64,000 bases of DNA from Daphnia carinata (taxonomy: Eukaryota), in contig NC_081334.1 of assembly GCF_022539665.2 (NCBI RefSeq), forward strand, positions 1,178,001 through 1,242,000. The letters are read 5' to 3'. Positions 18,701 to 25,360 of this stretch are shown one piece after another (position 1 is the stretch's first letter; every line of letters begins with the position of its first letter). The translations under genes were made by a program, and so were the position numbers. Under the pieces are notes generated by a model that ran no database searches, was not told the DNA's origin, and worked only from the letters and a program-made list of their open reading frames with translations.

Positions 18701-19678
18701 ATAGCCTTCCCACTTTTGTCAAAATTGGCGTAAATCAATATCTCTTGAAATTGGACAAAAATCACCCAGAATTACACGCTGATTCTAATTAAGTGATTTA
18801 TTTTCTCGTCAAACGAGCTGTTTTTGAAATAAACGGTAACAATGTGCTGTAGGTGCACCAACTTTATGTTATGGTTTTTTACGTTTATCTGAAAAATCAA
18901 TGGTGGATGCTTGGTCCAATAAAGTAAAATAATGGGATCAACTTCATAATTTAAAAATATTTTTAGGTAATTTTTCATTTTAATGCAAGCCGTTATTTCA
19001 CGTGAACGCCACCCACATTTTCTTCTTAAAACTGTTTTGGCTACCATGAACTTCACTAACATCCTAAGTCGTTTGATTAGCAGCACCGTGGCAAGTGACC
19101 GGGTAAAATTCACGTTTTTCAAACAAGGTTTTTTTAAACCAAATACCTCTCGAATAAAATCTAAGCCGCTATATATGACTTTTTTACGTAGAATAACATA
19201 GAAGTCAACGTCAACAGTACAAAACATATGCAAGAGCTCAAACCGTTTAGTCCTAGCCCAAGATTAATAATGTTAACAAGTGTTTGACTATTTGTTAGAA
19301 TTCACTATTTGCACTGCTTGCAACAATCTTAATTTCAACATGAAATGGAAAAACAAAAACAAACAAAAAACATGGCAAAAAGAACAAGTACTTGAAGATT
19401 TGGCGAATAATTCTAGTACTACGTTCTGGTCATGTTTTCTTTCACGTTTGTGTTTGTTGCTTTGTAAAAATAGAGCAAACTGAACATTCTTGTTGGCAGT
19501 TATACTATTTTGGCACAAAGAAAACCCCAGCAACAAACGTAATTTACCTATAAAAAGCGTTCACGACCAATCTTTTTCGCAAACCTATCGGGCTAGGAAG
19601 TATTATAGCAACAACACACATTTAGACAAACTAACTATAAAAACACGGTTGCATTGGGTGGCGTCCAGTAATTTCAGT

Positions 19679-22600
19679 CTAGGCATACCATGCCCACATA
19701 AAGGCAGACACCGACATGACTAATATGGCATTGGTGTTCACGAACCTAATGAAAATTTCCACATGCATACGATTAGGTTTTCATCATTACAAAACAATGT
19801 ACAATGACATAATTACCTAAACCATTTCGGGTCTTCTTTAATAAACTCACTAGCCATGAGGGCTTCTTGCTTGGGATCGATAACAGCAGTCACCACAGCG
19901 GTAGTATCCTGGGTTACTTTCTGAGTCTCGACGCCACAGAGGCAGTTAATGGCCTTCCTCCAGACAGGCAATTCAACTTTAATGTGCGTTGAATGAAAAA
20001 AAAAAAAAAATTAGTATTAATAATTATGTTACGTGACCATTACAGAAAGCGACAGGTTTCATAAACTGCTAAAATACCTGCATTGTCAACTATTGGCTGG
20101 GGTTCGTTGAGTTCGTTTACTGAGTCGTTGCTTGCTGTAGTCGAAGAATCGGCATTCATTATGGGTGTCGTCTCTTTTTGTGATTTATCAGAATTGTCAT
20201 TGTCTTCCAATATCGATCGAACTTGGGAGCTGTGACGGCTCCAAAATGTAAGACGGTACAACTGCGTTCAAGGCATTTTCATTAGTGCGGTCATCAAATA
20301 ATGACTAGCATTATTAGATTTCTTACATATTTTTCATCAATCGGTTCCGTGATAAGTGAAACGAGTACCGTTGTTACCAGCGATATGACGAACAGAATGC
20401 AACCAAAATGAAGATAGTGAACGTTTCCCACAATCTTCTTGATGACCTCTGGTCGAGGATCAGGCAGACCTAATAAGTGTTTACATCCGATATTAGATTA
20501 TAACAGAAAGCTTGTTGAATTGACGTTTCAATTTCACGTACCTGTGCCACATGGTGGAATAACGTAACCAAACTCCAAACCGAAGCGGATGAGTCCCACA
20601 ATCAATCCTACCATAAGGCCCCAGAAAGCTCCCTGAAAGAAAAAGCAAAAATCCAATTATTGCTGTACATGTGGCAAAACAAGACAACATTTCTGATTTA
20701 AAAAAATTTGTTTAGTATGGGAAATAAGGACTGGTACGAACACCTTTAGTAGCATAAGGCTGGGGAAAATTACAAAATGATAAATGGCAAAGGCTGATAT
20801 TAACACCAGCGTGGTTAGTGATTATAGATTTGCAGATACCTGAAGCGAAAGAAGAATTAATTATTACATAAACCAAAAGACGGTTGATTTTTCTGCAAAT
20901 AGGCCCATGTTTAGCTAAAGCAAACAGGCTGTTAAGTTAACCATTGAATGATTGATCTTATGCGTGCATTTACATCTCTGATATGCGTAATACTACTCAA
21001 AATTCTAAATGGTTCGAGGTTAAGGCTACTCTGTCGTAACTGCTACACGTAGATGATAACGTATCATTTTTTGATGAGACAATTTCGAATATCTACACGT
21101 ACTTAAACTTCAACCACTTAAAATAATGAGCGAAACAAATGCAAGGGACTCGCGCGTTACGTCGAACGTGTCACTCGCGGGTGGGTAATTTAAGTTAGCT
21201 TTAAGATCTATAATTGGCATAGAGGGGTGAATTCTAATTATGAAGAAACCTGTTCATTGGTGCGTGGGATGAAAAAGGCCAGTAAGTACACAGCGCAAAC
21301 GGGTGGTGCTAAATATGATGTAATATTTTGAATGTAGACGAAGAGTTGGCTTCCTTGAGATGCCTGAATCATCGGAATCCACAGGATACTGATGGCTACT
21401 AGGACCAGCACAAAGAGTCTGTAGAAATGATGGCAATAGAAAGTAAGGAAATGATCAGTTACTGCCCGTTTGGGGACTACTCACTTACAAATTAATATTC
21501 CTTAGACTTAGTATATACATATCTGGCATTCCGCAATGGACGTACTTCAATTACGGCGAACAGGAAGTTCAACGAATACCCAATACATCTTAGTATTACG
21601 GTGCGACGAAAGTAGTTGTTTAATGTAATTATTATAGCAATGAAAGAAGCATGAGGCAGAAAATCCATTACGTCTTTTGATATTAAAGCAAATGATTAAT
21701 TAAGCAAAGGACAATGGAGAAGCTGAATAAAACAATGAAGTTAGGTCGAAAGCTATCGGTAATCTAAGGTGGTGAGGAAAGGTAAGTTAGTTTTTCTCGG
21801 GTTTTCCTTTAGCATATAGGCAATTAGTTCCTCAGCTAACATCGGTTATTAATTTTGTTTGTTTGAAGATATTAATGCCTTACTGGTTCATTTGTTCGTG
21901 GCCAAAAGACGGCCAACAAAAACACCGCGCTGACGGGGGGTGATAAGATGTTTTGCACTTGTTGCATATAAGTAAATAATTGTGACCCGGCTACATTTTG
22001 GATGATTGGCACCCACAACACACCGATTGCCACCAGCAACAAGCAACTCACTCTAGGATCACAAGACATGACATTGAAATTACATTAAACAAACAATTCG
22101 TCGTCGCACCCCCGTTGCTTGGCTTTTTTGTCGTCACATAATTTCTTACCAAGTTACATAACCATGTTTATGGTATCATTATGGGCTAGTCTGCCGCGCC
22201 AGAAATCCGTGATCAACAAGATAAGAGTCAAACGAGGATTTTGTTATTTGATTAAACAATTTCTACGCTGACGAAACACTTAATGATCAGCTTTATCATC
22301 GAATGAATAAGCACTAAAATTTATGTAATTTCTCATACGTCGGTGACACTGCAAATTTTCTCTTCGCACCGTATGCATAACGATTAACCAAGTTAGCCAA
22401 AGGAGATGTTGATAACTTATTTTAATCCCTAATAAAATTACCTAATAGGTTTTCGCTTACGACCTAATAGTTCTCTACTTAAGATTTACATGATTACCTT
22501 CCGACGATGAGCAGCTCGATGTCAGAAGGATTTTTCCGAATCCGAGTCCAGATGTCCATAGTGAAAATAGTTGACGATGAGTTGAAAATCGAAGTCAAAG

Positions 22601-25145
22601 AACTCATTAAAGCTGCCAACATGACGGACAACATTAAACCAGTCAATCCTGCAGCATTGATAAAAGGTATAGTAGGCAATTCGCAGACGTAGATCAGTTG
22701 GAATTCAAAAAATTGCATACCTGGAGGTAATAAATTGATCACGAGCTCAGCGTAAGCGATATTAGTGCATCCGGCCTGACTTCCACAAATTTTTTCGCAC
22801 GCCTGTGGATCAGCACAGGCAACCCTATCAGTGTATAGCACTCGCGAAGCCATTCCGGGGAAAATGATGATAAACAACGGAAGGATTTTCAGAAAACTGG
22901 CCATGATACAGCCTCCTTTTGCGTGATTCATGCTTTTCGCTGCCAAAGTTCGTTGAACGATAACCTAAGTAAGCCAAAAAGCCATACGCAATTTTCAGTT
23001 AAAAAAAATAAATAAGAGGATGCGAAAAGGTATACACGCATTACCTGATCAGAGCACCAATACCAGATGGACGAGATGGTAACACCGAAAACGACGCCAG
23101 TCCACGGTAATTCAGGCGACGTGATGCTCTTGAAAAGGTGCATCGCATCGGGCGGAATGTTTGCGCACGATCTGTTGTTCAAATCATACGCGGTGTAGTT
23201 TTCACTCGGGTACGCCATGAAAAACTGGCGAATCAACTCGCTGTAACCACCGACTTTGACAAACGCTGTTGATAACGAACGAAAAAAAAAATGATTCGCA
23301 AATAGTTTTAACAATCAACCAAGATTCAATAAAACGTAATATGGTAAAGGTTATGTGTTACCCATGCCCATCAAAATGAAAGATCCAATCAACATAATGA
23401 TGGTCTGCACGAAATCTGTCCAAATAACAGCCGTCAATCCTCCGGTGATGGTAAAGAGTGCCGCAATACCTAGGAGGATCAAGATGGAAATATAAATCCC
23501 TGCGTCTCCTTCCAAACCCATTGCTTGTTGAATAAAAATAGCTCCGGAAAACAAATCAGCCTAAAAAAGGAATGTTGAAATAATTTTAACTTGTATCATT
23601 TTAAGTAATCATATAACCATATCGCACCGAGATTTTAGTGAACACGTAGAGAAGAAGGGCTAGCACGGAAAGGTAGACACGAATCCGCTGCCCACCAAAT
23701 CTGAGTCGTAGGTATTCCGGCATAGTGTAAACACCGCTGGCTGTTTGGCAAAACGCCAGTTAAAATTAAATTATTCAGACAACGTGTGATCATTTCGTCA
23801 ACCGGTCAACTTACCCATGTAGACAGGAACAAAGACGTAACCCAAAAGAATCAGAACAAACATGGCCTGCGGATGTGAAAACCCAATACGACACATTAAT
23901 CGTCGTTACACTGATCGAGTGAGGTTAGCTATTTCGAATAGAATCTTACGTTTAATTCGAATGCCGCATTGCCAATTCCGGAAGCCGCACCCGATCCGGA
24001 TAGTCCAACAAAATGTCCTGATCCGATGTTGCTAGCAAATAATGAAGCTCCTACCTAGTGAGTTTGACGTTTCAATTAATAATTCTTACATCCATTATGC
24101 AGAAACGAATAAAGTTTTAGTAAAAGCCAAATTACCGGAATCCAGTGCATATTTCTCGATGCAAGAAAATAGCCGCTAATGCTGTCTTGCTTATTAGAAC
24201 GGCCAGACTATCATTCAAAAACAAAATTATACAATCATAAACATTTATGAATAGGCTAATTCGCCGCGCAATTCACGGGGCATAAAATAACTCATTTATT
24301 ATTCACATATTTTGCAAGTTGCTCTCGAGCGTGGTCTACTGTTTACCTGTCGTGTGCAGTAAACATTGGTATCAGGGAAAGTACTACTTTAGCTTCCCCT
24401 GGATTAAACGGATTCGAGAAATCAACAATACGAAACCTGCTGATGACGACGCTCACTGATGTCGTTGCGTGGTTTTGATAACGGGGAACAAAAACAGCAC
24501 GTACGTAAATTGTACCATTAATCCCCCTTCCTTTCGTAACTTGACTTTTGAAGTTTCTGCTAACATGAAGGTAAACTTTAAAGGGGCTTTCCATTTTTTT
24601 TTTTCAAACAACAAATAGAAGATGTCGTGAGCTTAGAGGCAAAAGATAATGTGGTTACTAAACCAAACTGAAATGGAAGAGAGACTCTCTGGAAATAACC
24701 TGATTAACACACAATGCCAGTGCTGACAGGAGATACATAAATGCAAAAGAAAACCATGGCAAAGGGAAACAATCAGCGATTACTCATGTTCTTGGTCTTG
24801 CATTGTCGATGTTGATAATCAAACAACACTCCCGAACCGTGCGATTTGAAACAATAACTGAAATTCGACCCAAACGTATCGCAACTATTTGGCCTGTAAA
24901 TATTCGATGAACTAACTTTATGATGGGAAGGGGAAAAACCACGTAAAAACCCACTGCTTTCTTAAAAGGCAAAGAGCTCGTCTCAGCAAAAACAAGTGAC
25001 CTTTTCTCATTTTTCTTTTCTAATCAATGCCTTAAGTTAATTTTTTTTATATTGCATGAAAGAAACAAAATTTCGGTACTAAGAATTTAAAGAGCAAAAT
25101 ATTACCCACAGTCCTACGGCGAGAATGCCCACGAAATAGATAGCT

Positions 25146-25207
<62 letters not shown>

Positions 25208-25360
25208 AAATGAAGAAATTTATAATTAGCCTCCGGTTCATCGTTGAGCAATACAAAATAATAACGTTATTTAAAAAAAAATAAAATAGTTACCTATCAC
25301 AACATAATCCGGCCATTCTAGCGAAGATGAAACAGACAGAGTAGAATCCGCTTTGTCCAT
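19679..25360 (-). CDS. Sodium/sugar cotransporter, SLC5A (SGLT-like) family, multi-exon with a mutually exclusive exon pair
   Basis: ATG at 25360 (MDKADSTL..); [97 protein letters not shown]; ends FMWAWYA* at 19679. Confidence 0.95.
21250..21418 (-). CDS. SLC5A alternative exon B (169 nt)
   Basis: tttctacag|A CTC TTT..GAA CAG|gtttct; open frame encoding [57 protein letters not shown]; same length and phases as exon A. Confidence 0.9.
21884..22052 (-). CDS. SLC5A alternative exon A (169 nt)
   Basis: tag|A GTG AGT..GAA CCA|gtaagg; encodes [57 protein letters not shown]. Confidence 0.9.

What the first reader, a model, noticed from the sequence alone, without database searches (positions are those of the whole stretch)
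21250..22052. Mutually exclusive duplicated exons swap the sugar-binding helix of an SGLT-type transporter
Seen: two homologous exons, each exactly 169 nt, phase 2 in and phase 0 out, with canonical AG/GT and open frames; 33 of 57 aa are identical by hand alignment. They lie between constitutive exons ending at 22498 and starting at 20632. Because 169 is not a multiple of 3, including both or neither shifts the frame. Known: this segment corresponds to human SGLT1 GQLFDYIQSITSYL, which carries gate F453 and sugar-contacting Q457/T460; residue 457 distinguishes transport from sensing in SGLT3. Exon B is canonical ([13 protein letters not shown]); exon A reads [13 protein letters not shown], with the T460 equivalent changed to Q. 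Inference: one gene yields two transporters with different substrate specificity or kinetics. I do not know of this being described for SLC5A.
Basis: partly seen in the sequence, partly recalled or inferred. Interest (0 to 1): 0.9.

Follow-up and report, generated by a model that had tools for sequence, protein, structure and literature searches.

The report
Swappable sugar-pocket exon in SGLT transporter
A water-flea gene for a sodium-driven sugar transporter carries two conserved copies of the exon that builds one wall of the sugar pocket, only one copy at a time keeps the reading frame, and springtails have a pair at the same exon, so one gene likely makes two transporters that would differ in sugar preference or affinity.

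Summary
Observation confirmed. A Daphnia SGLT gene (identical to D. carinata RefSeq X1/X2) has two homologous 169-nt exons. Either gives an open 691-aa protein; both or neither give an early stop. RefSeq annotates both isoforms in four Daphnia species. Exon A is under purifying selection (19 silent, 0 replacement changes against a pulex-like contig).

Added here: springtails duplicate the same exon, in the same order (Folsomia X1/X2; contig L004). Their A copies group with Daphnia A, so one old origin is favoured but not settled (AU p 0.005-0.10 against two origins). Decapods duplicate a different pocket exon (TM6).

Correction: F453 and Q457 are identical in both copies, so the SGLT3 sensor analogy fails. 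The pocket change is T460Q, beside the sugar's C6, and springtail A keeps S460.

No reads were available. B is seen in intronless records; A rests on annotation and conservation. Changed sugar handling is inferred, untested. No SGLT case turned up in ten literature searches or in the scan's notes, which hold like cases in other transporter families. A new member of a known kind (NKCC2-like).

The parts
21884..22052 (-). Exon 11A, 169 nt, residues 422-477 (human 428-483; TM9-TM10). The divergent copy: S429, Q458, Q460, N461, I462 in human numbering
   Evidence: the spliced product equals P0004 = XP_059351175.1; 19 silent and 0 replacement changes against L001
21250..21418 (-). Exon 11B, 169 nt, canonical SGLT-type copy (T460, S461, Y462), with a non-consensus donor GTTTCT
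   Evidence: the spliced product equals P0010 = XP_057374560.1; 165 of 169 nt identical to L010
22498..22648 (-). Constitutive exon 10 (TM8, sodium-site serines), ends in phase 2
20542..20632 (-). Constitutive exon 12, starts in phase 0
19679..25360 (-). Whole coding span of the SLC5A/SGLT gene: 16 coding exons per isoform, 691 aa
   Evidence: family
22078..22111 (-). Element E1, 26-59 nt upstream of the exon A acceptor; predicted 5' arm of a stem that would loop out exon A (candidate, seen in this species only)
   Evidence: not conserved in L001
21599..21631 (-). Element E2 in the A-B intron; predicted 3' arm pairing with E1 (15 + 10 bp perfect, about -34 kcal/mol)
   Evidence: (0 of 30 shuffles as strong)

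Best explanation
The gene encodes a sodium-coupled sugar transporter of the SGLT type and holds two tandem, conserved copies of the exon for helices TM9-TM10, of which only one at a time keeps the frame, so it likely makes two full-length transporters: a common canonical form (B) and a likely minor form (A) predicted to handle sugar differently. Shown: anatomy, frame logic, conservation of both copies, B in spliced records, and a pair at the same exon in springtails. Inferred: (1) The spliceosome picks one copy, and messages with both or neither carry early stops upstream of several junctions and would be removed by nonsense-mediated decay. In this species a stem around exon A may help repress it. 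(2) Form A still transports (Q457, F453 and the sodium sites are kept), but Q in place of T at 460, with changes at 458, 461 and 462, would crowd or rewire the site that holds the sugar's C6 hydroxymethyl. That would lower glucose affinity or favour sugars and polyols without that group (pentoses, 6-deoxy sugars, inositol). (3) The duplication likely predates the split of water fleas and springtails.
For: Frame logic. Both isoforms are in RefSeq for D. carinata, pulicaria, pulex and magna, with differences confined to residues 422-477; two further D. magna annotations also use A (P0006, P0015). Exon A peptide is identical in carinata, pulex and pulicaria and 53 of 56 in magna. Window against L001: 19 silent, 0 replacement changes in A, Fisher p 2e-14. 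Further A-type single-exon ORFs with Q460 and N461 from unnamed records: P0008, P0276, P0277, P0283. Folsomia candida X1 and X2 differ only at residues 431-486, the same exon. Contig L004 has both copies, 169 nt each, AG/GT, A before B. A copies form one clade, support 99/89 with 47 rows and 81/78 with 56 rows. Residue 460 hydrogen-bonds the sugar's C6-OH in SGLT2 (PMC12322204, passage) and contacts the C5 substituent of inhibitors in SGLT1 (PMC9616851, passages). It is T or S in 270 of 301 distinct segments and Q in 18. TM10 moves in gating (PMC10203128, passages).
Against: No reads: the one run search listed none, so no junction was counted. In the D. magna B-form cluster, 9 of the 15 members cover the exon and all 9 carry B, including all 7 Logan-only ones on 1.2-2.6 kb contigs. 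The two searches with A returned no intronless full-length Daphnia A record from Logan or JGI. RefSeq isoforms are predictions whose RNA support I could not see. Springtail A copies keep S460, so T460Q is not the shared ancient feature; the shared ones are S429, Q458 and N461, whose role is unknown, and S429 with Q458 also occurs in unrelated ORFs (P0279, P0284, P0330). A survey of human duplicated exons found most changes conservative (PMC9741552, passages). The stem is not conserved in L001. Two separate origins were rejected in two of four joint AU runs and in neither single-constraint test.
Confidence: 0.6

Rival explanations
1. Both isoforms are real, but they differ in gating, turnover, sodium coupling, water leak or membrane packing rather than in which sugar they take; glucose remains the main substrate of both.
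For: 20 or so of the 24 differences lie away from the known sugar contacts. F453 and Q457 are kept, and the constant pocket (N78, H83, E102, S287, Y290, W291, K321) is shared. TM9-TM10 rotate in closing the outer gate (PMC10203128). Springtail A keeps S460.
Against: Q460 is fixed in all branchiopod-type A copies seen and is rare elsewhere (18 of 301 segments), at a residue that binds the C6-OH.
Confidence: 0.25
2. Water fleas and springtails duplicated this exon independently and the A copies converged; the Daphnia pair is real but younger. This concerns history only and is compatible with the main mechanism.
For: AU tests did not reject separate origins (p 0.23; p 0.15; p 0.10; mtZOA, p 0.07). 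The exon gives only 56 columns. A-clade support fell to 81/78 with controls added. The cladoceran and springtail genes were not sisters in the tree of the constant part. Decapods show that SGLT pocket exons duplicate repeatedly, and convergence of such events is documented (PMC9741552).
Against: The best trees always join the A copies. Separate origins cost 26-40 log-likelihood units and were rejected at p 0.038 (LG+G4) and p 0.005. The order A then B is the same in L004, L001 and the window, which is a one-in-two coincidence.
Confidence: 0.3
3. Exon A is a decaying or non-productive copy: a pseudo-exon, a poison exon for regulated decay, or the start of a truncated 276-aa product from an in-frame ATG just upstream.
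For: All spliced Logan records of the cluster carry B. An in-frame ATG lies 6 codons upstream of A, and one D. magna annotation starts there (P0006). A+B inclusion gives an early stop.
Against: 0 replacement against 19 silent changes and a peptide conserved across species cannot be kept without translation in this frame. P0006 sits on a 4.5 kb contig, so its start may reflect a broken assembly. Springtail annotations use the A type in full-length proteins (P0031, P0032, P0034).
Confidence: 0.07
4. Isoform A is a sugar sensor like human SGLT3 rather than a transporter.
For: The segment holds residue 457, whose E-to-Q change turns SGLT3 into a transporter (PMC2857651, abstract).
Against: Both copies have Q457.
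Confidence: 0.05

Closest known systems
SLC12A1 (NKCC2) exon 4 variants
   Same: Tandem duplicated, mutually exclusive exons that swap an ion-binding transmembrane helix of a solute carrier and change affinities (PMC6873903, passage citing a review; PMC8373072 supplement, passages).
   Different: Another family and substrate, three copies, vertebrate, and measured in function. Here a sugar pocket, two copies, arthropods, function untested.
Tandem duplicated exon substitution events (human and Drosophila catalogue, PMC9741552, PMC8373072)
   Same: Homologous internal exons of equal length; old; enriched in channels and transporters; convergent across phyla (passages).
   Different: The string SLC5A occurs 0 times in the held supplement of either paper, and SGLT 0 times in the main text of PMC9741552. 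The supplements held may not include every table.
RefSeq isoform pairs of this gene: D. carinata XP_059351175.1/XP_057374560.1, D. pulex, D. pulicaria, D. magna, and Folsomia candida XP_021966846.1/XP_035701108.1
   Same: These are the same two products.
   Different: Automatic annotation only; names differ by isoform (SGLT1-like, SGLT4-like). No paper discussing them was found.
Human SGLT1 and SGLT2 (PDB 7wmv, 7vsi, 8hg7)
   Same: Same fold (TM-score by target up to 0.95); sugar and sodium site residues kept.
   Different: Vertebrates vary the pocket by separate genes (SGLT1-6; PMC12605011, passages). Position 460 is T or S in the solved chains, Q in exon A.
Drosophila serpent exon 4 bidirectional RNA pairing (PMC4691838, abstract and section 5)
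   Same: A stem from the upstream intron to the middle intron that encloses the first copy and would favour the second.
   Different: serpent has two stems conserved across species. Here one stem is seen, in one species; the second pairing is weak (-9.2) and conservation failed in L001.

Membership tests
SLC5A SGLT-type sodium/sugar symporters | Sodium:solute symporter domain | tested here: met
   TIGR00813 461 and 467 bits against cut-off 184; PF00474
SLC5A SGLT-type sodium/sugar symporters | SGLT fold | tested here: met
   Model of isoform A, pLDDT 81.9; the first 15 Foldseek hits are human SGLT1/2
SLC5A SGLT-type sodium/sugar symporters | Sugar contacts N78, H83, E102, Y290, W291, K321, Q457 and gate F453 | tested here: met
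   All present in both isoforms; contact list from PMC9616851 and PMC12322204 passages
SLC5A SGLT-type sodium/sugar symporters | Sodium-site residues S77, D204, S392, S393, T395, S396 | tested here: met
   Present; their assignment to the Na2 and Na3 sites is recalled, not read in a call
SLC5A SGLT-type sodium/sugar symporters | Sodium-coupled sugar transport | not testable with these tools
   Needs expression and uptake assay
Homologous mutually exclusive exons (tandem duplicated exon substitution) | Two homologous exons in tandem, same length and phase, canonical splice sites | tested here: met
Homologous mutually exclusive exons (tandem duplicated exon substitution) | Each alone gives a full frame; both or neither do not | tested here: met
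Homologous mutually exclusive exons (tandem duplicated exon substitution) | Both copies conserved under selection in relatives | tested here: met
Homologous mutually exclusive exons (tandem duplicated exon substitution) | Each copy seen in spliced RNA | tested here: inconclusive
   B: intronless Logan records. A: RefSeq and GenBank models only; no run could be laid
Homologous mutually exclusive exons (tandem duplicated exon substitution) | Copies not found together in mature mRNA | not testable with these tools
   Needs junction or long reads; no record in the proteins fetched held both Daphnia copies
Exon choice by competing RNA structures (serpent/Dscam type) | Complementary intronic elements conserved across species | tested here: not met
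   Window stem -33.5, 0 of 30 shuffles; L001 best -24.7, 8 of 30 shuffles; homologous L001 element -19.5 against null -17.1 +/- 2.4. Only one relative's introns were available
Exon choice by competing RNA structures (serpent/Dscam type) | A second, competing pairing that encloses the other copy | tested here: not met
   E2 with the element behind B -9.2; best pairing between those two introns reached by 12 of 30 shuffles
SGLT3-type sugar sensors | Glutamate at 457 | tested here: not met
   Q in both copies; PMC2857651 abstract

The most novel reading that the evidence does not exclude
An exon switch older than the split of water fleas and springtails lets one SGLT gene encode two sugar pockets, with form A taking a substrate class other than glucose (pentoses or inositol-like polyols). 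Decapods reached the same solution independently on the opposite pocket helix (TM6, positions 283-287). Pancrustaceans would thus diversify sodium-sugar transport by splicing where vertebrates use separate genes, and the isoform pairs would be natural chimeras for testing the rules of SGLT sugar selectivity.
Probability: 0.35. Interest if true: 0.78.

Novelty: new member of a known kind. Interest (0 to 1): 0.6.

Why it matters
What sets sugar selectivity among SGLTs is still partly open: swapping SGLT1 residues into SGLT2 was tried as a way to explain galactose transport (PMC12322204, passage cut mid-sentence). Here two proteins are identical except for 24 residues in TM9-TM10, both kept by selection, and one has Q at a C6-binding position that is T or S in 270 of 301 segments. 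That is a ready-made experiment. It also extends the NKCC2 principle to SLC5, suggests a splice event shared by branchiopods and basal hexapods, and means gene-level expression counts for this Daphnia transporter may hide two activities. The kind of event is well known and both isoforms are already in RefSeq, which limits the surprise.

Tried and rejected
RNA: no RNA holder was listed for window 19000-24500, so no reads were laid; this is no evidence either way. No whole genome is held. Supplements of three Daphnia splicing papers gave 0 hits for 'glucose cotransporter' or SLC5A (PMC11061156; PMC11282837; PMC7318467); these tables may list only subsets of genes.

Competing-structure model with E2 pairing on either side: rejected, the downstream pairing is weak. 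Conservation of the E1:E2 stem: not found in L001. In L004 the inter-intron pairings were reached by 2, 1 and 4 of 30 shuffles, not compelling. Steric exclusion: unlikely, the A-B intron is 465 nt here, 625 in L001 and 181 in L004, and the AG-free stretch before B is only 43 nt. A hidden third copy or remnant in the introns of the window, L001 or L010: none above shuffles. A double-stranded partner for exon B that would support RNA editing: none found (z 0.70). SGLT3-type sensor: rejected. Whether Q460 marks inositol transporters: the Atlas search with P0412 and the NCBIfam scan gave no substrate information.

Literature: one Nature paper was not held; a DOI recalled for Lam et al. 2021 returned an unrelated paper, so Lam et al. 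is known to me only through PMC9741552. One AU script timed out; its finished parts were read.

Full report
1. Observation. The two exons are as described. On the minus strand, 22052-21884 (A) and 21418-21250 (B) are each 169 nt with AG/GT ends. I rebuilt the gene: 16 coding exons from 25360 to 19679. With A or with B it reads 691 aa; with both it stops at codon 532, with neither at codon 429. Both early stops lie upstream of at least four later junctions, so decay of such messages is expected from general knowledge, not shown. A and B share 32 of 56 full codons and 94 of 169 bases, only 19 of 56 at third positions. No third copy is in the window.

2. Identity. The two products match P0004 and P0010 letter for letter, RefSeq isoforms X2 and X1 of Daphnia carinata. 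The protein is an SGLT: family score far above cut-off, human SGLT1/2 as best sequence and fold matches, sugar and sodium residues kept. The exon equals human residues 428-483, TM9 and TM10. In 114 of 145 new single-exon ORFs from the representative search the segment is followed by Val, as expected from reading into a GT donor, so the 3' boundary is widely shared.

3. Are both copies used? RefSeq has an A and a B isoform in D. carinata, pulicaria, pulex and magna, differing only in residues 422-477. The A peptide is identical in three of the four species and 53 of 56 in magna. Against the pulex-like contig L001, exon A has 19 silent and 0 replacement changes (p 2e-14), while the nine constitutive exons placed (exon 1 did not pass the cut-off; exon 8 is misaligned by a gap) have pS 0.61. 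That is strong evidence for translation of A. Against this, all 9 members of the 15-member magna cluster that cover the exon carry B, 7 of them Logan-only records on contigs too short to hold the introns, and no intronless full-length Daphnia A record came up. Assemblies drop minor forms, so I read B as common and A as minor or tissue-restricted. No reads could be examined.

4. Beyond Daphnia. Folsomia candida X1 and X2 differ only at residues 431-486, exactly this exon. Of 18 metagenome loci, L004 holds exon 10, an A-type copy, a B-type copy and exon 12, both copies 169 nt with AG/GT; L002 ends after an A-type copy; L001 holds Daphnia A and part of B; L010 holds B onward; the other 14 show a single copy, most with other intron positions. 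Orchesella and Allacma models use the A type. Four unnamed ORFs carry a branchiopod-like A with Q460 and N461 (P0008, P0276, P0277, P0283).

5. One origin or two? In exon trees the Daphnia-type and springtail A copies form one clade: 99/89 with 47 rows, 81/78 with 56 rows after adding 14 rows, 7 of them controls, and dropping 5 near-duplicates. Forcing each lineage's copies together costs 26-40 log-likelihood units; AU p was 0.038 and 0.072, 0.10 and 0.005. Single constraints under the mixture model were not rejected (p 0.23, 0.15). The alignment has 56 columns, P0277 and P0283 are of unknown taxon, convergence can mimic kinship, and the constant parts of the two genes were not sisters in a quick tree. 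I put one origin at about 0.7.

6. What the swap changes. F453, Q457 and P465 are the same in A and B; 454 (T/V), 458 (Q/N), 460 (Q/T), 461 (N/S) and 462 (I/Y) differ. Residue 460 hydrogen-bonds the C6-OH of the bound sugar in SGLT2 (PMC12322204, passage) and touches the C5 substituent of inhibitors in SGLT1 (PMC9616851, passages). Among 301 distinct segments from 389 of 419 proteins fetched, 460 is T in 189, S in 81 and Q in 18; the set is biased by my queries. A longer side chain there would be expected to crowd or rewire the C6 site, hence my prediction of lower glucose affinity or a shift toward sugars lacking the hydroxymethyl group. This is inference; no docking or assay was possible. 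Springtail A keeps S460 and shares S429, Q458 and N461 instead, so the ancient difference may concern helix packing or gating (TM9 and TM10a rotate on closure; PMC10203128, passages). The SGLT3 analogy fails because 457 is Q in both (PMC2857651, abstract).

7. How exclusion may work. A 15 + 10 bp stem joins 22111-22078, just before the A acceptor, to 21631-21599 in the A-B intron. None of 30 shuffles matched it. Of 124 control window pairs, 3 had as long a perfect match, all poly-A/T runs. It would hide A and favour B. But L001 shows no significant equivalent and no second stem encloses B, so it fails the serpent/Dscam test (PMC4691838, abstract and section 5). Frame-shift decay is the only safeguard supported in all species seen.

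8. A second event. Penaeus chinensis X3/X4 and Portunus X1/X2 differ only in exon 8, which ends in TM6 and changes positions 283, 286 and 287. Models from Chionoecetes and Petrolisthes contain both copies in tandem. Position 287 is a known selectivity site (PMC11061222 and PMC12605011, passages). This repeat on the other pocket wall supports a role in tuning substrate handling.

9. Unexplained. Exon B is 165 of 169 nt identical to L010, a more distant daphniid, with pS 0.07 against 0.66 in three constitutive exons (p 6e-10). The differences are skewed to A>G: 6 of 11 against L001 and 3 of 4 against L010, versus 11 of 151 and 3 of 63 in constitutive exons (noticed after the fact). magna, pulex, pulicaria and galeata share V and G where carinata, L010 and P0313 keep M and S, against the species tree. 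Edited adenosines fixed in parallel would fit, but no pairing partner was found.

10. Prior knowledge. Ten literature searches (listings and abstract starts seen), six of them aimed at this event, showed no paper on duplicated exons in an SGLT. SLC5A is absent from the held supplements of two catalogues. Subscription journals and unheld supplements were not seen. The closest precedent is NKCC2 exon 4. The scan's notes hold no SGLT case but several like cases in SLC13, SLC6, ABC and ammonium transporters, unchecked here.

11. Verdict. A real, conserved mutually exclusive pair (about 0.9), a new member of a known kind, with likely deep ancestry and a parallel event in decapods. A functional difference of some kind is likely (about 0.85); a difference in sugar handling through the C6 site about 0.6. 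Interest 0.6.

Noticed in passing
P0033/P0159, P0045/P0168, P0037, P0107 (equivalent of window exon 23265-23045): Decapod SGLT genes carry a tandem duplicated exon 8 (extracellular loop plus TM6a), used one at a time in RefSeq isoforms and changing pocket positions 283, 286 and 287.
   Followed up: partly
window 21250-21418; L010 150-318; L001 4514-4619: Exon B is almost frozen at silent sites between the window and a distant daphniid, differences are skewed to A>G, and its tree conflicts with the species tree. Possible editing signature or splicing constraint; no pairing partner found.
   Followed up: partly
P0009/P0026 (Owenia fusiformis): Two models on one contig share the C-terminal part but differ in the exon 8 segment, hinting at a duplicated exon 8 in an annelid too.
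   Followed up: no
P0074, P0086, P0117, P0132: Unnamed full-length SGLTs with A-like N461 and an unusual Q in place of the second Pro of the TM10 kink; P0074 is sister to the springtail gene in the tree of the constant part.
   Followed up: partly
window 22071-22053: In-frame ATG six codons before exon A, also used as a start by one D. magna model (P0006).
   Followed up: partly
P0170: Unnamed 103-aa springtail-like ORF in which exon 10 runs directly into an A-type exon and then appears to read into the next intron: a partly spliced RNA or a lost intron.
   Followed up: no
P0145/P0027 residue 617; P0050/P0160 residue 619 (window acceptor at 19976): One-residue isoform differences at the exon 14/15 junction in D. 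magna and at a similar position in Tachypleus, likely tandem acceptors.
   Followed up: no
window 25150-25200: A run of about 50 T in intron 1, just before the exon 2 acceptor.
   Followed up: no
L012: Two SGLT genes in tandem on one metagenome contig.
   Followed up: no
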